From contig NC_135253.1 of NCBI RefSeq assembly GCF_964204865.1, positions 24,924,001 through 24,988,000 of the forward strand: a stretch of DNA of 64,000 bases, in the 5' to 3' direction. Every line of letters begins with the position of its first letter. The first letter of the stretch is position 1. Positions 6,001 to 15,000 of the stretch are shown one piece after another. Source of the DNA: Styela clava (lineage: Eukaryota). The position numbers were made by a program.

Positions 6001-9000
6001 TAGATTTTGCAAGGCTAAAGAATCGGAATTACTCTTACGTACCAGATTAAACTAAATTGAAACTCGTTTGACGGGCCGTAAACCTTCAAAGTTCGCACTT
6101 CTTCGCGGGCCGCCGAATTTTTCCTTGTGGGCCACATTTAGCCCGCGAGTCGCTTGCACACCCCTGCTATACACTGATCGTATTGATTAAAACATTTTAA
6201 CGCACATAAGAAAGCCAGCCCTTATGTACAGGTTAGGATATTTCATATTCAGCAAGTGAACTAGGTAAGTTTGTTAGAATTAATCATACGATGGACCCGG
6301 ACCACAGAGCCGTTGGTGTACAGTCATGAGAAAGAAAGAAATCGTTTTCGATCAGATATGTTACATGACGTTTCACACTCTTTTCATTCCGAGAAGGGCT
6401 TCGAATAAACATCCACTTATATGCGAGGATTATATTTGTGGGTACCTTTGGTGAAGTGGGGGGGGGGGGGGGGGCATTGACAATAAATTTAATAATTTCA
6501 TGGATTGTTTTGCGAAATATTTTTCGTTGTTGTAGTTGCAAAAGTTGCTTTCTTCTACAAATGAAGTACGAATCGATTTCAAATTTGCAATTACTTCGCT
6601 ATTACCTTTATTCATTCGAGTCCAACAAGGCACGTTATCACGCCCTAAATTTCGCTATTTTATTTTAAATCCGGCGGACACTTTTGTATGGCATGACCAT
6701 ATAACTGAGCATTACAATCTGGTTCAGTACTTCCGAAGTATGTGAACCAAGATGTCGGGCATCGCAACGTAGTATGTGTACCGGGTTAGGATTAGGCCAT
6801 AATTTCAGGCACAAATACTGCGGGAGTCACTTGGCTAGTGCCCGAATTTGTAATAGAACCAAGACAATGAATATTGGAATAAAATTGTGACCTAACCCCA
6901 ATCTGTTAAACATACCAAGTCCCGGTGTCCGTCATCATGGTTCACATACTTCGGGAGTACAACTCGTTTTATTTTATTCCAGCGTTTCAAACCAATGTAA
7001 ATCTCTCGCACATAGCTTAGTCATCATGATAATCGGAAAAAGTATCTATCTATATACTTTGGCGATGTTTTCAATAACTGCTTATGTGGGAGCCCAGCAA
7101 GACGTTGTGTTCCAGTGCTCAGTGAAAAAAGGCTGCCAAATTCATCAATGTGACCCAGCACCAGCTGGTGAGATATAACATACATGTAAATAGAGTAACT
7201 AATGTTATTATAAGAATGTTTAAAGTCGCATTTTAATATTTTATTCTAGTATTGTGGTCGAAATCGAACTCCCAAGTCGCAATGTTGAGCTTGCAAAAAA
7301 CAGTACATTTCAAACAACTTAATCAAAATAAGCAGCAGACCAGCTGCCATTAAAAATATTTTACTGATCAGAATTAAGTTTTATCGTAGTCAGATTGAAA
7401 TCAAACCCAGACAATATCCAGACCAGATATGAAAAAATCTCTCAATTCGGAATCATGAGTCTGTGTTATATTTATATATATTTGATAACCAAAACTGTAG
7501 CGGAAGTATGAATTCGGCATCTCTTTTTACTATTGAGGTTAGTCGCGCTTCGCAGTTTCAGACTCGTATGGTAAGCCAAAATATGTTCAGCAACAAAACC
7601 CAAAAACTTTCGATAAAAAACGGTTTAGGCTTATTCCATCCGGAGTCAAATTTTTATTCAATTCAGAGTTGACGTCATAATTACATTTTTGAATAGGTCA
7701 GGAAATTGAGTGTAACTTTTTCTTACTTTATTGCAACCCTGAGGTATGCATGTTTAAAGATATTGAATATGAAATAGACCTCCGTACTATGAAATCTTTG
7801 ATGAGAGTGCGGCTACTGGTCTGTCAATATCTATTTAGCCAATAAAGAAACATAGTGGTGAATCACGAGCTGCTGAATACCTTGGCGCAAGACCCGACAC
7901 GCTAGACCCGACCCTCATGGTTTGTTTAGTTTAGTTTTGATCAATTTTCGTTATGTTGTTCACTGGGAATGATTTATCTATTGCCATGTACCAGTACATT
8001 TATCTGAGCATTGATAACTTGTTTCATGTTTCTGCATATATTCAGGTTGGCAAAACCTCGGCATCGGCGTTCATCAACCTTTGAGCAGAGAAGAATTCCC
8101 CATCACATGCACGGGTTCCGGAACTTCAACAAGTAATTTAGAAGCTTTGATTCTGAAAAATTTGCAAGAAATTGCAACTTTCAAACAAGGTATTCACTCT
8201 ACTTTCTTATCTCAGCTCTGTGTTGGGTAATTGTTTTGTCTGCAGGGATACCGTAGCCGTGTCGCAATGGATGTCCCCCGAACCTTGACCCAGAAAAAAA
8301 AACTTCCCCCCGTATTTTAATATTACTTGATTTTAGATGCCTATTTTGCGAATGTTTTGTTTGCGAGTTAGCACGTACAAACCAACTTATACGATCAAAA
8401 CAATCATTTTTATTAAAACATACAAGCACGTGTCGCTAACAGATACAGACAACTAATCTTAGCCTAGTCCATCACAGCTTTTCCGGGACTTATTTTTGTT
8501 TATTGTAACTAAACTAAAGATCATCGGAAGATATAATGACTATTAAATAACTTCATTTACAACTAATTATCGGAAACACAACTGAAAACGACAAATAACA
8601 CGCAAAATCGCGGGAACGAGTTGTTGCTTACAACCATGCTTCTGCGCGAACGAAGTGCCTGAGCGGAAGCATAAATTGCAAATGTTACGTCATCTTTGAC
8701 TTTGTGCTGATTGGTCATTGTTAACGGAGATAAACAAGGAAATCGATGCTTGGGGAAACATTCATACCCACATTTCTTACCCAGCTTTTGCACCGCGACA
8801 CGAGCAGTGCTGCGAAGTTTCCCTTTTACTGATGTAGCAATGAGAACCGGAGAGTTTTGTTTTAAACAAGAAACAAATTTATAAATCCCTCGGAATAATT
8901 GTCAAACTTTTAAAGAATTAGGTCGACGTTTGGTACTCCCGAGTATGTGAACCAAGATGGCGGACACCGGAACGTAGTATGTGTACCAGGTTAGGGTTAG

Positions 9001-12000: not shown

Positions 12001-15000
12001 ATAATATTCAAACTAGTGTCTCATGTTATCTGAAATGAAATACGTAAGTTTCAGTATTCATTACTGATCGAATCGAAGTTGTATTTAATTCATGTATTTT
12101 TTTTTTGGAAATAGTTTTCACCCCTACAAACATTGCATTATATAGATATAGGGCGATACTTCAGTAAAGAAAAATCAAAAATTGATCCTCAATCGTTTGT
12201 CCAACTCGAATCATTTTATTAAACACTAAGGTACCATTGAAAACTCTGTCTGTACCAATAATAAGCTAAACGTTACATGATTTATATTCACTTCAACCTT
12301 TTGTTTTAGACACGAAAGACGACTCCTCCAGATATTTACACCAAATGGCATCCGAATCAGCCATACGTTCCTCGACATCGTACAGGGGCGCAGGGGATTT
12401 ATGTCGAGGTCAACAAAATTCCATTTATTACTAATCAAGGCATGGGTGTTCAGCCTGCTACTTTTACTGCCAATGGTGTTATTTGTCAGAAATCCATATA
12501 AAACAATATATAAACGAGATAGCGATCAGAGACCGCCGACTTATCGATCTAGCGGGGTATATTCTTTGCTCTGACTCAATAGCGATACCGCGTGTCCCAT
12601 CACTAATAAATCAATAACTAGCTAATTGTACGACATATTTCATCCAAAATCAATAGGCTTCTTGTCCGAGATAGGATGAATGCACATGCAAAATGAAGCA
12701 GATTCAACCTCGCTTTCGTGAGATATCGCGTAACATACGAAAGTGTCTGAAAGACAGACAAACAAATATCTATCAACTTACTTACCGATCTTAAGATCGA
12801 TAAGCAACAAGCTTACCGAGAATGAATGTCATAATAATGTACATTGTTTGATAAGCGCGAGCATACATACCGAGCAAACAGTAGCAATGCAACTGAAGAT
12901 TATACTACACGACCAACAAACATACCCAACACACGTAACATCGAAGAAAACTCTGACCTGGAAATAAAAAGTCAGAACAGATGTACTACGGAAATATCTC
13001 AAAAGAATTAGGTGCTGGAAAGTTTTTAGGTAACATTGGCGTTGAGTTGAGTCTTGAATGCATCGACTAAACCAAATTGTGGCAATGATGCGTGAGATAG
13101 TCAACAGCATATACCATTCCGAAAGCCTACCAGAAATGATGTCTCAAACGAAACTATAAAACTTGTAGGGTTCTTGTTGTATAATAATGTGATATATTGT
13201 AATATCGTTAGGTGGCGCTGTTGACCCGTATTGTCAAAGCCCATATATACCTAAGTTGCGCAACAATGGAAATTGGCCTCCTTTGGAAATCTTCCACAAC
13301 CTCCCTCCTTTAGCCACCGCCCTCTTTTCTTCAACACTCCCCTTCTTTAGCCACCGCCCTATCTTCCTCAACCCTTCCCTTCTCCAGCCATCGCCCTATC
13401 TTCCTCAAACTTCCCCTTCTTTAGCCACCGCCCTATCTTCCTCAACCCTCCCCTTCTTCAGCCACCGCCCTATCTTCCTCGACCCTCCCCTTCTTTAGCC
13501 ACCGCCCTATCTTCCTCAACCCTCCCCTTCTTCAGCCACCGCCCTATCTTCCTTGACCCTCCCCTTCTTCAGCCACCGCCCTATCTTCCTCAAACTTCCC
13601 CTTCTTTAGCCACCGCCCTATCTTCCTCAACCCTCCCCTTCTTCAGCCACCGCTCTATCTTCCTCGACCCTCCCCTTCTTTAGCCACCGCCCTATCTTCC
13701 TCAAACTTCCCCTTCTTTAGCCACCGCCCTATCTTCCTCAACCCTCCCCTTCTTCAGCCACCGCCCTATCTTCCTTGACCCTCCCCTTCTTTAGCCACCG
13801 CCCTATCTTCCCCAACCCTCCCCTTCTTCAGCCACCGCCCTATCTTCCTCGACCCTCCCCTTCTTTAGCCACCGCACTATCTTTCTCAACCCTTCCCTTC
13901 TTCAGCCACCGCACTATCTTTCTCAACCCTTTCCTTCTTTAGCCACTGCCCTATCTTCCTCAAACTTCCCCTTCTTCAGCCACCGCCCTATCTTCCTTGA
14001 CCCTCCCCTTCTTCAGCCACCGCCCTATCTTCCTCAAACTTCCCCTTCTTCAGCCACCGCCCTATCTTCCTCAACCCTTCCCTTCTTCAGCCACCGCCCT
14101 ATCTTCCTCGACCCTCCCCTTCTTTAGCCACCGCACTATCTTTCTCAACCCTTCCCTTCTTCAGCCACCGCACTATCTTTCTCAACCCTCCCCTTCTTCA
14201 GCCACCGCCCTATCTTCCCCAACCCTCCCCTTCTTCAGCCACCGCCCTATCTTCCTCGACCCTCCCCTTCTTTAGCCACCGCCCTATCTTCCTCAAACTT
14301 CCCCTTCTTCAGCCACCGCCCTATCTTCCTCAACCCTTCCCTTCTTCAGCCACCGCCCTATCTTCCTCGACCCTCCCCTTCTTTAGCCACCGCACTATCT
14401 TTCTCAACCCTTCCCTTCTTCAGCCACCGCACTATCTTTCTCAACCCTCCCCTTCTTTAGCCACTGCCCTATCTTCCTCAAACTTCCCCTTCTTCAGCCA
14501 CCGCCCTATCTTCCTTGACCCTCCCCTTCTTCAGCCATCGCCCTATCTTCCTCAAACTTCCCCTTCTTCAGCCACCGCCCTATCTTCCTCAAACTTCCCC
14601 TTCTTTAGCCACTGCCCTATCTTCCTCAAACTTCCCCTTCTTCAGCCACCGCCCTATCTTCCTCAACCCTTCCCTTCTTCATCCACCGCCCTATCTTCCT
14701 CAAACTTCCCCTTCTTCAGCCACCGCCCTATCTTCCTTGACCCTCCCCTTCTTCAGCCACCGCCCTATCTTCCTCAACCCTCCCCTTCTTCAGCCACCGC
14801 CCTATCTTCCTTGACCCTCCCCTTATTTAGCCACCGCCCTATCTTCCCCAACCCTCCCCTTCTTCAGCCACCGCCCTATCTTCCTCAACCCTCCCCTTCT
14901 TCAGCCACCGCCCTATCTTCCTCAACCCTTCCCTTCTTCAGCCACCGCCCTATCTTCCTCAACCCTTCCCTTCTTCAGCCACCGCCCTATCTTCCTCAAC

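What the first reader, a model, noticed from the sequence alone, without database searches (positions are those of the whole stretch)
7026..12501. Hidden 9-exon secreted lectin-like gene with a non-canonical CTLD, amplified in tandem
Not visible in the ORF track. Seen: exons splice into one 355-aa frame with signal peptide, four-Cys N-terminal region, coiled coil, Ser/Thr/Pro/Arg linker and CTLD-like domain. The domain keeps two Cys pairs (ECH..VCYW; SKC..VICQ) but has VHVG for WIG, QPY for EPN/QPD, GMGV for WND, and lacks the long-loop Cys pair. Inference: a Ca2+-independent, oligomerising, collectin/tetranectin-like recognition molecule from a lineage-specific expansion (ascidian-like), possibly immune, allorecognition or tunic related.
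Basis: partly seen in the sequence, partly recalled or inferred. Interest (0 to 1): 0.7.

Follow-up and report, generated by a model that had tools for sequence, protein, structure and literature searches.

The report
Hidden ascidian coiled-coil lectin-like gene
An unannotated but intact ten-exon gene of a Styela-type sea squirt encodes a secreted protein with a coiled-coil stalk and a very divergent C-type-lectin-like head; it is a real new member of a large, uncharacterised, species-restricted gene family rather than a new kind of thing.

Summary
The gene is real. A family profile hits only exons 1, 2, 9 and 10 among 3,226 ORF fragments of the window, in collinear order. The nearest database protein is Styela clava LOC120327281 (95%/90% identical to exons 9/10), a truncated model that joins exons 7-10 as predicted. 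Pfam finds nothing in it. Its AlphaFold model (pLDDT 87.9) matches C-type lectin domains down the listed PDB matches, and 12 of 23 HMMER relatives carry Lectin_C. The Ca2+/sugar motifs, the WIG tryptophan and the C2-C3 cysteines are absent. All 56 named relatives are Styela clava proteins, 54 of them called 'uncharacterized'; the full-length ones read share the same plan. A paralogue's stalk models as a parallel trimer. The gene sits in a 17.2-kb tandem unit: two intact copies and one truncated by a retroelement array. Expression and ligand are untested. The spliced protein was not joined or searched; exons were searched singly.

The parts
7026..7167 (+). Exon 1 (copy 1): start codon, hydrophobic signal-peptide-like N-terminus, first three Cys of the four-Cys module
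   Evidence: 11-residue hydrophobicity peak over residues 7-13, then VGA/QQ; hits 43 of 71 family proteins; HMM E 5e-8
8046..8189 (+). Exon 2: rest of the N-terminal module (FPITC, fourth Cys) and start of the helical stalk
   Evidence: 33 of 71 proteins hit; HMM E 1e-5, profile 40-99
9349..9411 (+). Exon 3: 21-codon heptad module (a/d residues L L N L N F)
   Evidence: no hit to the family
9600..9662 (+). Exon 4: 21-codon heptad module (I I N L N F)
   Evidence: 2 weak family hits (E 0.003-0.025)
10257..10331 (+). Exon 5: 25-codon heptad module (I L N Q L I L)
   Evidence: 2 weak family hits (E about 0.04)
10550..10624 (+). Exon 6: 25-codon heptad module (I I N Q L M Y); a second in-frame donor lies 6 nt upstream
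10792..10875 (+).
   Evidence: its last codons plus the junction codon match the N-terminus of P0001
11281..11367 (+). Exon 8: Ser/Thr/Pro/Arg linker leading into the domain
   Evidence: 26 of 26 aligned residues identical to P0001
11701..11927 (+). Exon 9: first half of the C-type-lectin-like domain (Cys pair ECH..VCYW, helix-1 Cys SKC, VHVG)
   Evidence: 95% to P0001, E 2.4e-40; HMM without P0001, E 8e-9
12310..12501 (+). Exon 10: second half of the domain (W..QPY, QGMGV, VICQ) and stop codon
   Evidence: 90% to P0001, E 7.5e-33; E 1.4e-12
12605..12610 (+). AATAAA, candidate polyadenylation signal 104 nt after the stop
   Evidence: a consensus match only
24232..29707 (+). Copy 2 of the whole gene, all 10 exons intact with AG/GT borders; 10 nt and 7 aa differences from copy 1
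41289..42452 (+). Copy 3, exons 1 and 2 only; homology to copy 1 ends at 42897 where a retroelement array begins
84..39993 (.). Tandem segmental repeat of about 17.2 kb (gene plus a 4.5-kb 37-bp satellite), 98.6% identical between units

Best explanation
Shown: this is an intact ten-exon, 383-codon gene of Styela clava or a very close relative. No identical or full-length protein for it turned up in the protein collection searched. Its parts, in order, are: a signal-peptide-like N-terminus; a conserved four-Cys module (exons 1-2); four exon-sized heptad modules of 21, 21, 25 and 25 codons with Ile/Leu/Asn/Gln at the a/d positions (exons 3-6); a Thr/Ser/Pro/Arg-rich linker (exons 7-8); and a C-terminal long-form C-type-lectin-like domain (exons 9-10). 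The domain keeps the N-terminal hairpin Cys pair and the helix-1/last-strand Cys pair, but lacks the C2-C3 pair, the WIG tryptophan and the EPN/QPD and WND-type Ca2+/sugar ligands. The gene is a very divergent branch of a family with at least 56 protein clusters, all named as Styela clava; the full-length members read have the same architecture. It lies in a 17.2-kb unit repeated in tandem: two intact copies, plus one cut off after exon 2. Inferred mechanism: the protein is secreted. The stalk zips several chains into a parallel in-register coiled coil, probably a trimer as in tetranectin and the collectin neck. The linker is probably O-glycosylated and acts as a flexible spacer. The clustered heads bind a repetitive target with avidity through a surface that does not use the canonical Ca2+-sugar site, so the target is a protein or a non-classical ligand. 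The stalk modules are phase 1-1 cassettes, so stalk length can vary by exon gain, loss or skipping. The most likely setting is humoral non-self or damaged-self recognition in blood or tunic, but this setting is the weakest step.
For: Gene model: frame, GT-AG; family HMM hits only exons 1, 2, 9, 10 of the three copies among 3,226 fragments, collinear; P0001 maps to exons 8, 9, 10 of both copies; P0001 joins exons 7 to 10 exactly as modelled. Organism and family: P0001 was the only hit, among 12 and 3 candidates; 56 of 56 hits named Styela clava; only 1 of 56 has a precomputed PF00059. [quoted passage not shown] Homology chain: 23 proteins at E<=1e-3, P0001 itself included; 12 of 23 match Lectin_C, best 5.6e-9; family profile against PDB: 5 of 7 hits are C-type lectin domains, PLA2R 4.7e-6. 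Motifs: (family consensus IWTG, KW.PG.P, QGM.N, GVICE; four conserved Cys only). Stalk: a/d hydrophobic fraction 0.67-0.71 against 0.07-0.29 elsewhere, same register in all four exons; 58-residue helix in the paralogue P0048. One search is a homotrimer model of P0048 residues 20-297: score 0.64, best of 3 controls 0.00. That mark was reached by 21 of 30 proteins solved as pairs of one chain and 0 of 23 solved as single chains (microbes). On eukaryotes it was reached by 17 of 29 (animals 7 of 16), but by only 1 of 7 with no older solved relative, and by 0 of 30 single chains. The runs agree in at least 34% of contacts and the partner pLDDT is at least 66. The interface is residues 71-139 at 3-4 spacing, with same-residue contacts 111-111, 118-118 and 125-125. 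Real copies rather than one locus assembled twice: the three copies differ from each other.
Against: No transcript evidence could be consulted, and no identical or full-length protein for this locus came back from the collection, so expression is unproven. Pfam finds nothing in the six single-exon peptides tested (exons 1, 2, 7-10) or in P0001, even at E<=10, and PDB sequence searches find no lectin. The oligomer model is on P0048, whose domain is only 28.7% identical to that of P0001. That job had three copies whereas the calibration had two, its alignment was not used, and trimeric coiled-coil lectins are solved, so the pass may reflect likeness. It also does not separate trimer from dimer or tetramer; Asn at two of three a-positions in exons 3-4 could favour another state. 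Exons 3, 6 and 7 have no hit to any of the 71 family proteins. The domain sits on a very long branch (2.15 against a median 0.34 substitutions/site; 19-30% identity to the other 64 domains, against a median 59.7% among 37 domains of the proteins first returned). It has lost residues at least 90% conserved in the family (the WTG Trp and the Asn of GM.N). Copies 1 and 2 differ by 8 non-synonymous and 2 synonymous changes. All three observations would also fit relaxed constraint. Ligand, Ca2+ independence, glycosylation and tissue are untested.
Confidence: 0.6

Rival explanations
1. The locus is a decaying or silent duplicate. The frame is still open only because the 17.2-kb duplication is very recent, and the head domain is drifting without function.
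For: The domain is on a long branch and has lost family-conserved residues. Copies 1 and 2 differ by 8 non-synonymous and 2 synonymous changes. Copy 3 is already truncated. No identical protein came back from the 5.8-billion collection. The only database model, P0001, is a 170-aa fragment.
Against: Ten exons with all 18 splice dinucleotides intact and no stop in two copies. A second locus or allele (P0001) 5-10% diverged at protein level keeps the same frame, all four domain Cys and the same variant motifs VHVG, QPY and GMGV, which points to conservation after the motif changes. The AlphaFold model is confident (about 95) over the domain. Ten differences are too few for a rate test.
Confidence: 0.15
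2. It is a functional analogue of the Halocynthia roretzi glucose-binding lectin (GBL) or of MBL. In this reading it is a humoral lectin that binds microbial sugars, docks a MASP-type protease through its stalk and triggers C3 cleavage. It would then belong to the 'collectin/MBL' expansion reported for Styela clava.
For: Passages of PMC8605247 describe GBL as having a coiled-coil N-terminal region in place of collagen, and as associating with MASP to activate C3. PMC7540406 (passages; section 3.3.4) reports an expanded collectin family and 25 'MBL' genes in Styela clava, many highly expressed at metamorphosis. Secreted stalk-plus-head architecture.
Against: The sugar/Ca2+ ligand motifs are absent in the window gene and not conserved in the family. 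There is no collagen-like Gly-X-Y run in any exon, so the known MASP-binding site of MBL/ficolin (recalled) has no counterpart. I could not obtain the GBL sequence or the gene list of PMC7540406 (supplements closed), so no homology was tested.
Confidence: 0.12
3. It is a structural or adhesive extracellular protein (tunic matrix, larval adhesive, egg coat or biomineral-associated) in which the lectin-like head is a protein-protein module, not an immune sensor.
For: Many C-type-lectin-like domains without the Ca2+ site bind proteins or crystals (established knowledge, recalled). There is a mucin-like linker and a rod-like stalk. The Atlas structure list includes a mollusc 'vitelline coat lysin M7' cluster, the row with the highest TM by target, 0.62.
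Against: No expression or localisation data. Large, fast-diverging, tandemly duplicating families are more typical of recognition than of matrix genes, though this is only a tendency.
Confidence: 0.2
4. The tandem 'amplification' is an assembly artefact (haplotypes or reads of one locus laid side by side), and the genome has a single copy.
For: The units are 98.6% identical, close to the 1.72% heterozygosity quoted for Styela clava in PMC7540406 (passage). Both complete satellite arrays have the same 122.7 units.
Against: There are three distinguishable copies, not two. Copy 3 shares the five exon-1 differences with copy 2 but has the exon 2 of copy 1. The units are joined through continuous sequence with no N in the window, and copy 3 has its own junction with a retroelement array.
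Confidence: 0.08

Closest known systems
Styela clava 'uncharacterized protein LOC...' family (e.g. LOC120327281 = P0001; LOC120335765 = P0017; LOC120345911 = P0005; LOC120346112 = P0048)
   Same: Same species group. Same architecture: signal peptide, C..C....C...FPITC module, heptad stalk built of 21-residue modules, Thr/Pro linker, C-terminal domain with four Cys. Exons 1, 2, 9 and 10 hit the family profile. P0001 is 90-95% identical over exons 9-10.
   Different: The window gene and P0001 form a very divergent branch (19-30% domain identity, long branch). They have VHVG for the family's IWTG and GMGV for GM.N, and lack the extra Cys next to the signal-peptide end. No full-length protein for this locus came back from the collection.
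Tetranectin group of C-type-lectin-like proteins (PDB 1htn)
   Same: Secreted, no collagen, alpha-helical coiled-coil stalk directly followed by a long-form lectin-like domain. 1htn is among the Foldseek matches (rank 25, E 9.3e-5, TM by target 0.61). It works by trimer avidity and binds proteins.
   Different: Tetranectin has three disulfides and Ca2+ sites in the domain and a short stalk (recalled). Here the C2-C3 pair and the Ca2+ motifs are absent, the stalk is longer and modular, and there is an N-terminal four-Cys module and a mucin-like linker. No sequence-level match.
Collectins (MBL, SP-A, SP-D, CL-K1)
   Same: Oligomeric secreted recognition molecules with an N-terminal Cys-containing region, a coiled-coil neck and a C-terminal C-type lectin domain. 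CL-K1 trimer 4yli and SP-A 3par are among the Foldseek matches (ranks 44-45).
   Different: There is no collagen-like region in any exon and no EPN/QPD or WND motif, so it is not a collectin by definition.
Halocynthia roretzi glucose-binding lectin (GBL)
   Same: [quoted passage not shown]
   Different: GBL binds glucose and MASP. The window protein lacks the canonical sugar site. Homology could not be tested here because no GBL sequence was available to the tools.

Membership tests
C-type-lectin-like domain (CTLD) superfamily | The CTLD fold (two helices, two sheets, long loop region) | tested here: met
   [quoted passage not shown] The window's own spliced domain was not folded.
C-type-lectin-like domain (CTLD) superfamily | Significant match to Pfam PF00059 Lectin_C | tested here: not met
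   0 families at E<=10 for exons 9 and 10 singly and for P0001. Membership is met only transitively: 12 of 23 HMMER relatives match, best 5.6e-9, and the family profile hits PLA2R CTLD8 at 4.7e-6.
C-type-lectin-like domain (CTLD) superfamily | C1-C4 disulfide cysteines (helix 1 to last strand), plus the C0-C0' pair of long-form domains | tested here: met
   C34, C42 and C62 are invariant and C166 is at least 90% conserved in 23 sequences. They align to the corresponding Cys of PLA2R CTLD8. They are present in window exons 9 and 10. Disulfide bonding itself was not tested.
C-type-lectin-like domain (CTLD) superfamily | C2-C3 disulfide cysteines and the WIGL-type tryptophan | tested here: not met
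   There are only four Cys in the domain. The PLA2R C3 cysteine aligns to a non-Cys. The family has IWTG but the window has VHVG.
Ca2+-dependent carbohydrate-recognition domains (classical C-type lectins) | EPN or QPD tripeptide and WND motif supplying the Ca2+ site 2 ligands (motifs recalled) | tested here: not met
   The window reads W-H-P-N-Q-P-Y and Q-G-M-G-V at these places. Only the Pro and G-M are conserved in the family. Binding was not measured.
Collectins | Collagen-like Gly-X-Y repeat region between the N-terminal segment and the neck | tested here: not met
   No run of three or more G-x-x in any of the 10 exon peptides.
Tetranectin group | Coiled-coil stalk next to a long-form CTLD forming a homotrimer | tested here: inconclusive
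   Heptad pattern in exons 3-6. The trimer model of paralogue P0048 scored 0.64 against a best control of 0.00, with the calibration counts given in the For line. There is no sequence-level relation to tetranectin, and the third disulfide and Ca2+ sites are absent.
Styela clava stalked CTLD family (unnamed) | N-terminal C-x5-C-x4-C ... FPITC module together with the C-terminal four-Cys domain, in that order | tested here: met
   Exon 1 hits 43 and exon 2 hits 33 of 71 family proteins. The HMM without P0001 gives E 5e-8, 1e-5, 8e-9 and 1.4e-12 with collinear coordinates.
Halocynthia GBL-type complement lectins | Sequence homology to GBL; binding of MASP and glucose | not testable with these tools
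   No GBL sequence could be fetched. Only passages of PMC8605247 were seen.

The most novel reading that the evidence does not exclude
The Styela family is a tunicate-specific, collagen-free and Ca2+-independent counterpart of the collectins. Diversity would be generated in two ways: exon-cassette variation of stalk length (21/25-codon phase 1-1 modules) and rapid divergence of the head. The window would show it evolving in real time, as a young 17.2-kb tandem array whose copies already differ mainly by amino-acid-changing substitutions. In that reading the VHVG/GMGV branch has acquired a new ligand, possibly a self/non-self or symbiont-derived protein, rather than losing function.
Probability: 0.2. 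Interest if true: 0.6.

Novelty: new member of a known kind. Interest (0 to 1): 0.35.

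Why it matters
It adds an unannotated, intact and recently duplicated gene to a large Styela-restricted family that routine domain annotation misses: only 1 of 56 named relatives carries a precomputed Pfam lectin domain. If the family is expressed in blood or tunic, it would be a second, collagen-free route to multivalent recognition molecules in the sister group of vertebrates. It would also be a handy case for studying how stalk length and head specificity diversify by exon cassettes and tandem duplication. 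As it stands it corrects an annotation gap and gives a testable model, but it does not overturn anything: lineage-specific expansions of C-type-lectin-like genes are common in invertebrates. For Styela clava itself, expanded 'collectin/MBL' genes are already in print (PMC7540406; passages and section 3.3.4 read).

Tried and rejected
1. Pfam on six single-exon peptides (exons 1, 2, 7-10) gave 0 families at E<=10. PDB sequence search with exon 9, exon 10 and P0001 gave only chance-level hits, best E 1.7, 0.57 and 0.38.

2. The Atlas search with the N-terminal module of P0048 (residues 19-75) gave no usable hit. The AlphaFold monomer of P0048 gives that module only pLDDT 54-67, so its fold stays unknown.

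3. I scanned for further hidden stalk exons. Of 93 phase 1-1 AG...GT cassettes between exons 1 and 9, the 6 that pass the heptad filter all overlap exons 3, 4 or 6. Exon 5 itself fails the strict filter. No extra exon was found.

4. Stop-to-stop ORFs of 55 aa or more in 563-6900 (30 listed) show nothing that looks coding, and the family HMM finds no further family gene in the window.

5. Literature: six LOC identifiers of family members gave 0 papers. 'tunicate' + 'C-type lectin-like domain' + 'lineage-specific expansion' gave 1 paper, on an insect. 'Styela clava' + 'C-type lectin' gave 12 papers, none on this family judging by listing and abstracts. One search listed 20 of 36 papers; I read passages of one (PMC8605247) and saw the rest only in the listing. 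Searches gave listings only. Not finding the family in print rests on these searches alone. Supplements, which may list the genes of PMC7540406, were closed.

7. Rejected readings: collectin (no collagen), classical Ca2+-dependent lectin (motifs absent), and a human contig (the only close protein is ascidian).

Full report
Where a contiguous protein was needed I used proteins that the databases returned, chiefly P0001 (Styela clava LOC120327281) and P0048 (LOC120346112 isoform X2). Statements about fold and oligomer therefore rest on those stand-ins. The window has no N, and nothing in it looks human: the only close protein is ascidian.

**1. The observation.**
- Reading 6800-12700 and testing the borders by script gives ten exons on the + strand: 7026-7167, 8046-8189, 9349-9411, 9600-9662, 10257-10331, 10550-10624, 10792-10875, 11281-11367, 11701-11927 and 12310-12501.
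- Every internal border is AG...GT. The running frame has no stop. The total is 1152 nt, or 383 codons plus stop.
The difference of 28 codons is exactly exon 7 (84 nt).
- Exons 2 to 8 all begin and end in phase 1, so any of them can be left out without breaking the frame.
- Exon 7 is probably used. The database protein P0001 begins with the last two residues of exon 7 and the residue of the exon 7/8 junction codon, and then runs through exons 8, 9 and 10 exactly as modelled.
- Exon 6 has a second in-frame donor 6 nt upstream.
- There are eight cysteines, four in exons 1-2 and four in exons 9-10; no N-x-S/T sites; and no Gly-X-Y runs.

**2. More than chance.**
- I built a profile from 12 full-length relatives without P0001 and searched it against all 3,226 stop-to-stop fragments of 12 aa or more on both strands of the window.
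- It hit only exon 1 (E 5e-8), exon 2 (1e-5), exon 9 (8e-9) and exon 10 (1.4e-12) of copy 1, and the same exons of the other copies.
- The profile coordinates follow on from each other: 15-46, 40-99, 216-290, 291-352 (with P0001 included).
- By short BLASTP against 71 family proteins, exon 1 hits 43, exon 2 hits 33, exon 10 hits 16, exon 9 hits 3, exons 4 and 5 hit 2 each weakly, exon 8 hits 1 (P0001), and exons 3, 6 and 7 hit none.
- The stalk and linker exons therefore rest on the frame, the splice sites, the heptad pattern and, for exons 7-8, P0001.

**3. Whose gene, and what family.**
- Exon 9 and exon 10, searched singly among longer proteins, each found one protein only: P0001, 'uncharacterized protein LOC120327281' of Styela clava, 170 aa. 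It is 95% and 90% identical to the two exons (12 and 3 candidates).
- A full HMMER pass with P0001 over 1.84 billion representatives gave 23 proteins at E<=1e-3, P0001 included, at 21-30% identity.
- Many of them show the same plan as the window gene: signal peptide, a C-x5-C-x4-C...FPITC module, a long charged heptad region, a Thr/Pro-rich linker and a C-terminal domain of about 140 residues with four Cys.
- A profile of 13 of them found 56 proteins in the named collection, all 56 labelled Styela clava. Of these, 54 are 'uncharacterized', one is 'golgin-like' and one 'PFB0765w-like'. Most of the hits that carry a contig length share one value, 23.8 Mb, and only 1 of 56 has a precomputed Pfam lectin domain.
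- Whether the family exists outside Styela clava is open.

**4. The head is a C-type-lectin-like domain.**
- Sequence methods fail directly. Pfam gives nothing at E<=10 for the six single-exon peptides tested or for P0001, and PDB sequence searches give chance hits only.
- Indirectly, 12 of the 23 HMMER relatives match PF00059 (best 5.6e-9).
- The family profile finds five C-type lectin proteins among its seven PDB hits: PLA2R CTLD8 4.7e-6, DEC-205, the IgY receptor and two mosquito lectins. The other two hits are coiled-coil noise.
- The AlphaFold model of P0001 with the 23-row alignment has mean pLDDT 87.9, about 95 over residues 40-170.
- Foldseek against the PDB gives at least 225 matches at E<=0.001, and the listed top matches are all C-type lectin(-like) domains: CLEC4D, MCL, DEC-205, CD23, Mincle, mannose receptor CRD4, tetranectin, CL-K1 and SP-A.

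**5. How the head departs from the norm.** Motif names here are recalled.
- The family keeps the hairpin pair and the helix-1/last-strand pair of cysteines. C34, C42 and C62 are invariant and C166 is at least 90% conserved, in P0001 numbering.
- It has no C2-C3 pair. In the alignment to PLA2R CTLD8 the receptor's C3 cysteine faces a non-Cys.
- The consensus of 65 domains from 60 proteins reads IWTG, KW.PG.P.TG, QGM.N and GVICE. Only the proline of the EPN/QPD position is conserved, so the classical Ca2+ site 2 is not a family feature.
- The window gene and P0001 go further, with VHVG for IWTG and GMGV for GM.N.
- Their domain is 19-30% identical to the other 64 (median 25.2%). The median is 59.7% among 37 domains of the proteins first returned.
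- In a FastTree tree, midpoint-rooted and with low support near this tip, it sits on a branch of 2.15 against a median of 0.34 substitutions per site.
- This could mean a new specificity or relaxed constraint. The fact that P0001, 5-10% diverged, keeps the same variant motifs and all Cys argues mildly for the former.

**6. The stalk.**
- Each of exons 3-6 shows the same heptad register. The a/d residues are L L N L N F, I I N L N F, I L N Q L I L and I I N Q L M Y.
- The hydrophobic fraction is 0.67-0.71 at a/d against 0.07-0.29 elsewhere.
- The exons are 21, 21, 25 and 25 codons and look like duplicated cassettes. Among relatives, P0045 differs from P0048 mainly by two extra 21-residue modules.
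- The AlphaFold monomer of P0048 shows one helix over residues 83-140, a disordered linker and a confident head.
- A homotrimer model of P0048 residues 20-297 scored 0.64 against a best control of 0.00 (3 controls).
- The mark was reached by 21 of 30 proteins solved as pairs of one chain and by 0 of 23 solved as single chains in the microbial calibration.
- On eukaryotes it was reached by 17 of 29 (animals 7 of 16), but by only 1 of the 7 with no older solved relative, and by 0 of 30 single chains.
- The runs agree in at least 34% of contacts and the partner pLDDT is at least 66. The calibration used two copies, not three, and the alignment was not used.
- The confident interface is residues 71-139 at 3-4 spacing, with same-residue contacts between chains, which means a parallel in-register coiled coil.
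- Trimeric coiled-coil lectins are solved, so the pass may be from likeness. It does not fix the number of chains, and it concerns a paralogue.

**7. Secretion and linker.**
- The first 23 residues have a hydrophobic core, with the 11-residue Kyte-Doolittle mean peaking at 1.73 over residues 7-17, followed by VGA/QQ. Family members start in the same way.
- No signal-peptide predictor was available, so this is a reading of the sequence.
- Exons 7 and 8 are 52% and 43% Ser+Thr+Pro, which fits an O-glycosylated spacer. This is inferred.
- An AATAAA lies 104 nt after the stop.

**8. The tandem array.**
- 84-22781 aligns with 17315-39993 at 98.6%.
- The unit of about 17.2 kb holds the gene and a 4.5-kb array of a 37-bp C-rich satellite (13289-17804 and 30495-35008, 122.7 units each; the window opens inside another array, 1-562).
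- Copy 2 (24232-29707) has all ten exons and borders intact. It differs from copy 1 by 10 of 1152 coding bases.
- Eight of these change seven residues: GKS to RGN in the signal-peptide start, L to I in exon 2, and T to I, N to I and K to I in the stalk. Two are silent.
- Copy 3 has exons 1 and 2 only. Its homology stops at 42897, where an array of a Ty3/gypsy-type element begins (42898-58257, period 6260).
- Copy 3 shares exon 1 with copy 2 and exon 2 with copy 1, so there are three distinct copies. This makes an assembly artefact unlikely but does not exclude it.

**9. What it most likely does.**
- Shown: gene structure, family, fold of the head (on a close paralogue), absence of the classical site, heptad stalk, tandem copies.
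- Inferred: secretion, parallel oligomer, glycosylated spacer, avidity binding to a non-classical ligand.
- Guessed: a humoral recognition role.
- It works like tetranectin or a collectin neck-plus-head. It is not a collectin, because it has no collagen. Membership of the tetranectin group is not supported by sequence.
- The closest functional precedent in ascidians is the Halocynthia glucose-binding lectin, described as coiled coil plus lectin domain and as a MASP partner (passages of PMC8605247). I could not test homology to it.
- The Styela clava genome paper reports expanded 'collectin' and 25 'MBL' genes, many expressed at metamorphosis (PMC7540406, passages and section 3.3.4). Whether those include this family is in its supplements, which were closed.

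**10. Novelty and score.**
- This is a new, unannotated and unusually divergent member of an existing but uncharacterised family within a well-known superfamily.
- Searches for six family LOC identifiers (0 papers) and for related terms found no description of the family.
- Expansions of lectin-like genes in invertebrates are common, so a specialist would not be much surprised. Interest is 0.35.
- The boldest reading still open is a collagen-free, Ca2+-independent collectin analogue that diversifies by stalk cassettes and head divergence. I put it at about 0.2.

**Not checked.**
- Transcripts.
- The window's own spliced protein.
- The DNA of paralogues, so no Ka/Ks.
- Other tunicate genomes.
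- The metagenome and viral contig collections, which were closed.
- Cluster membership, because that tool was off.
- Paper supplements.

Noticed in passing
1-562, 13289-17804, 30495-35008: Arrays of a 37-bp C-rich satellite (15.5, 122.7 and 122.7 units; GC skew down to -0.78). They produce the Pro/Leu/Ser-rich pseudo-ORFs of the ORF list and form part of each 17.2-kb unit.
   Followed up: partly
42898-58257 (- strand ORFs): Tandem array (period 6260 bp, about 2.5 units, 98.7% alike) of a Ty3/gypsy-type retroelement with gag zinc knuckles, protease-RT and RNase H-integrase ORFs. It begins exactly where lectin copy 3 loses homology, inside its intron 2.
   Followed up: partly
59226-60686 (+): Intact 486-aa ORF with THAP, HTH_Tnp_4 and DDE_Tnp_4 domains, i.e. 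a PIF/Harbinger-type transposase or a gene derived from one.
   Followed up: partly
63054-63881 (-): 275-aa ORF with a YqaJ-like recombinase / viral alkaline exonuclease domain (E 3e-17), of the kind carried by some eukaryotic mobile elements. Its context was not examined.
   Followed up: no
6727-6960, 8929-9149, 1076-1191, 18307-18420, 35511-35624 and others: Roughly 230-bp elements that match their own reverse complement and each other (67-89%), MITE-like. One lies about 65 nt upstream of the start codon and one in intron 2 of each gene copy.
   Followed up: no
9367, 9373, 9636 versus copy 2 (26554-26868): All three stalk differences between copies 1 and 2 change a residue to Ile, one of them a core (a-position) Asn. 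Overall there are 8 non-synonymous and 2 synonymous differences, too few to test.
   Followed up: partly
12512-12815 versus 3115-3406, 20335-20626, 37539-37830: A 300-bp segment just after the gene's stop codon recurs inverted (78%) about 9 kb upstream in every unit. It is an unclassified dispersed repeat.
   Followed up: no
61235-61440: A short tandem repeat of a 93-bp unit, 2.2 copies.
   Followed up: no
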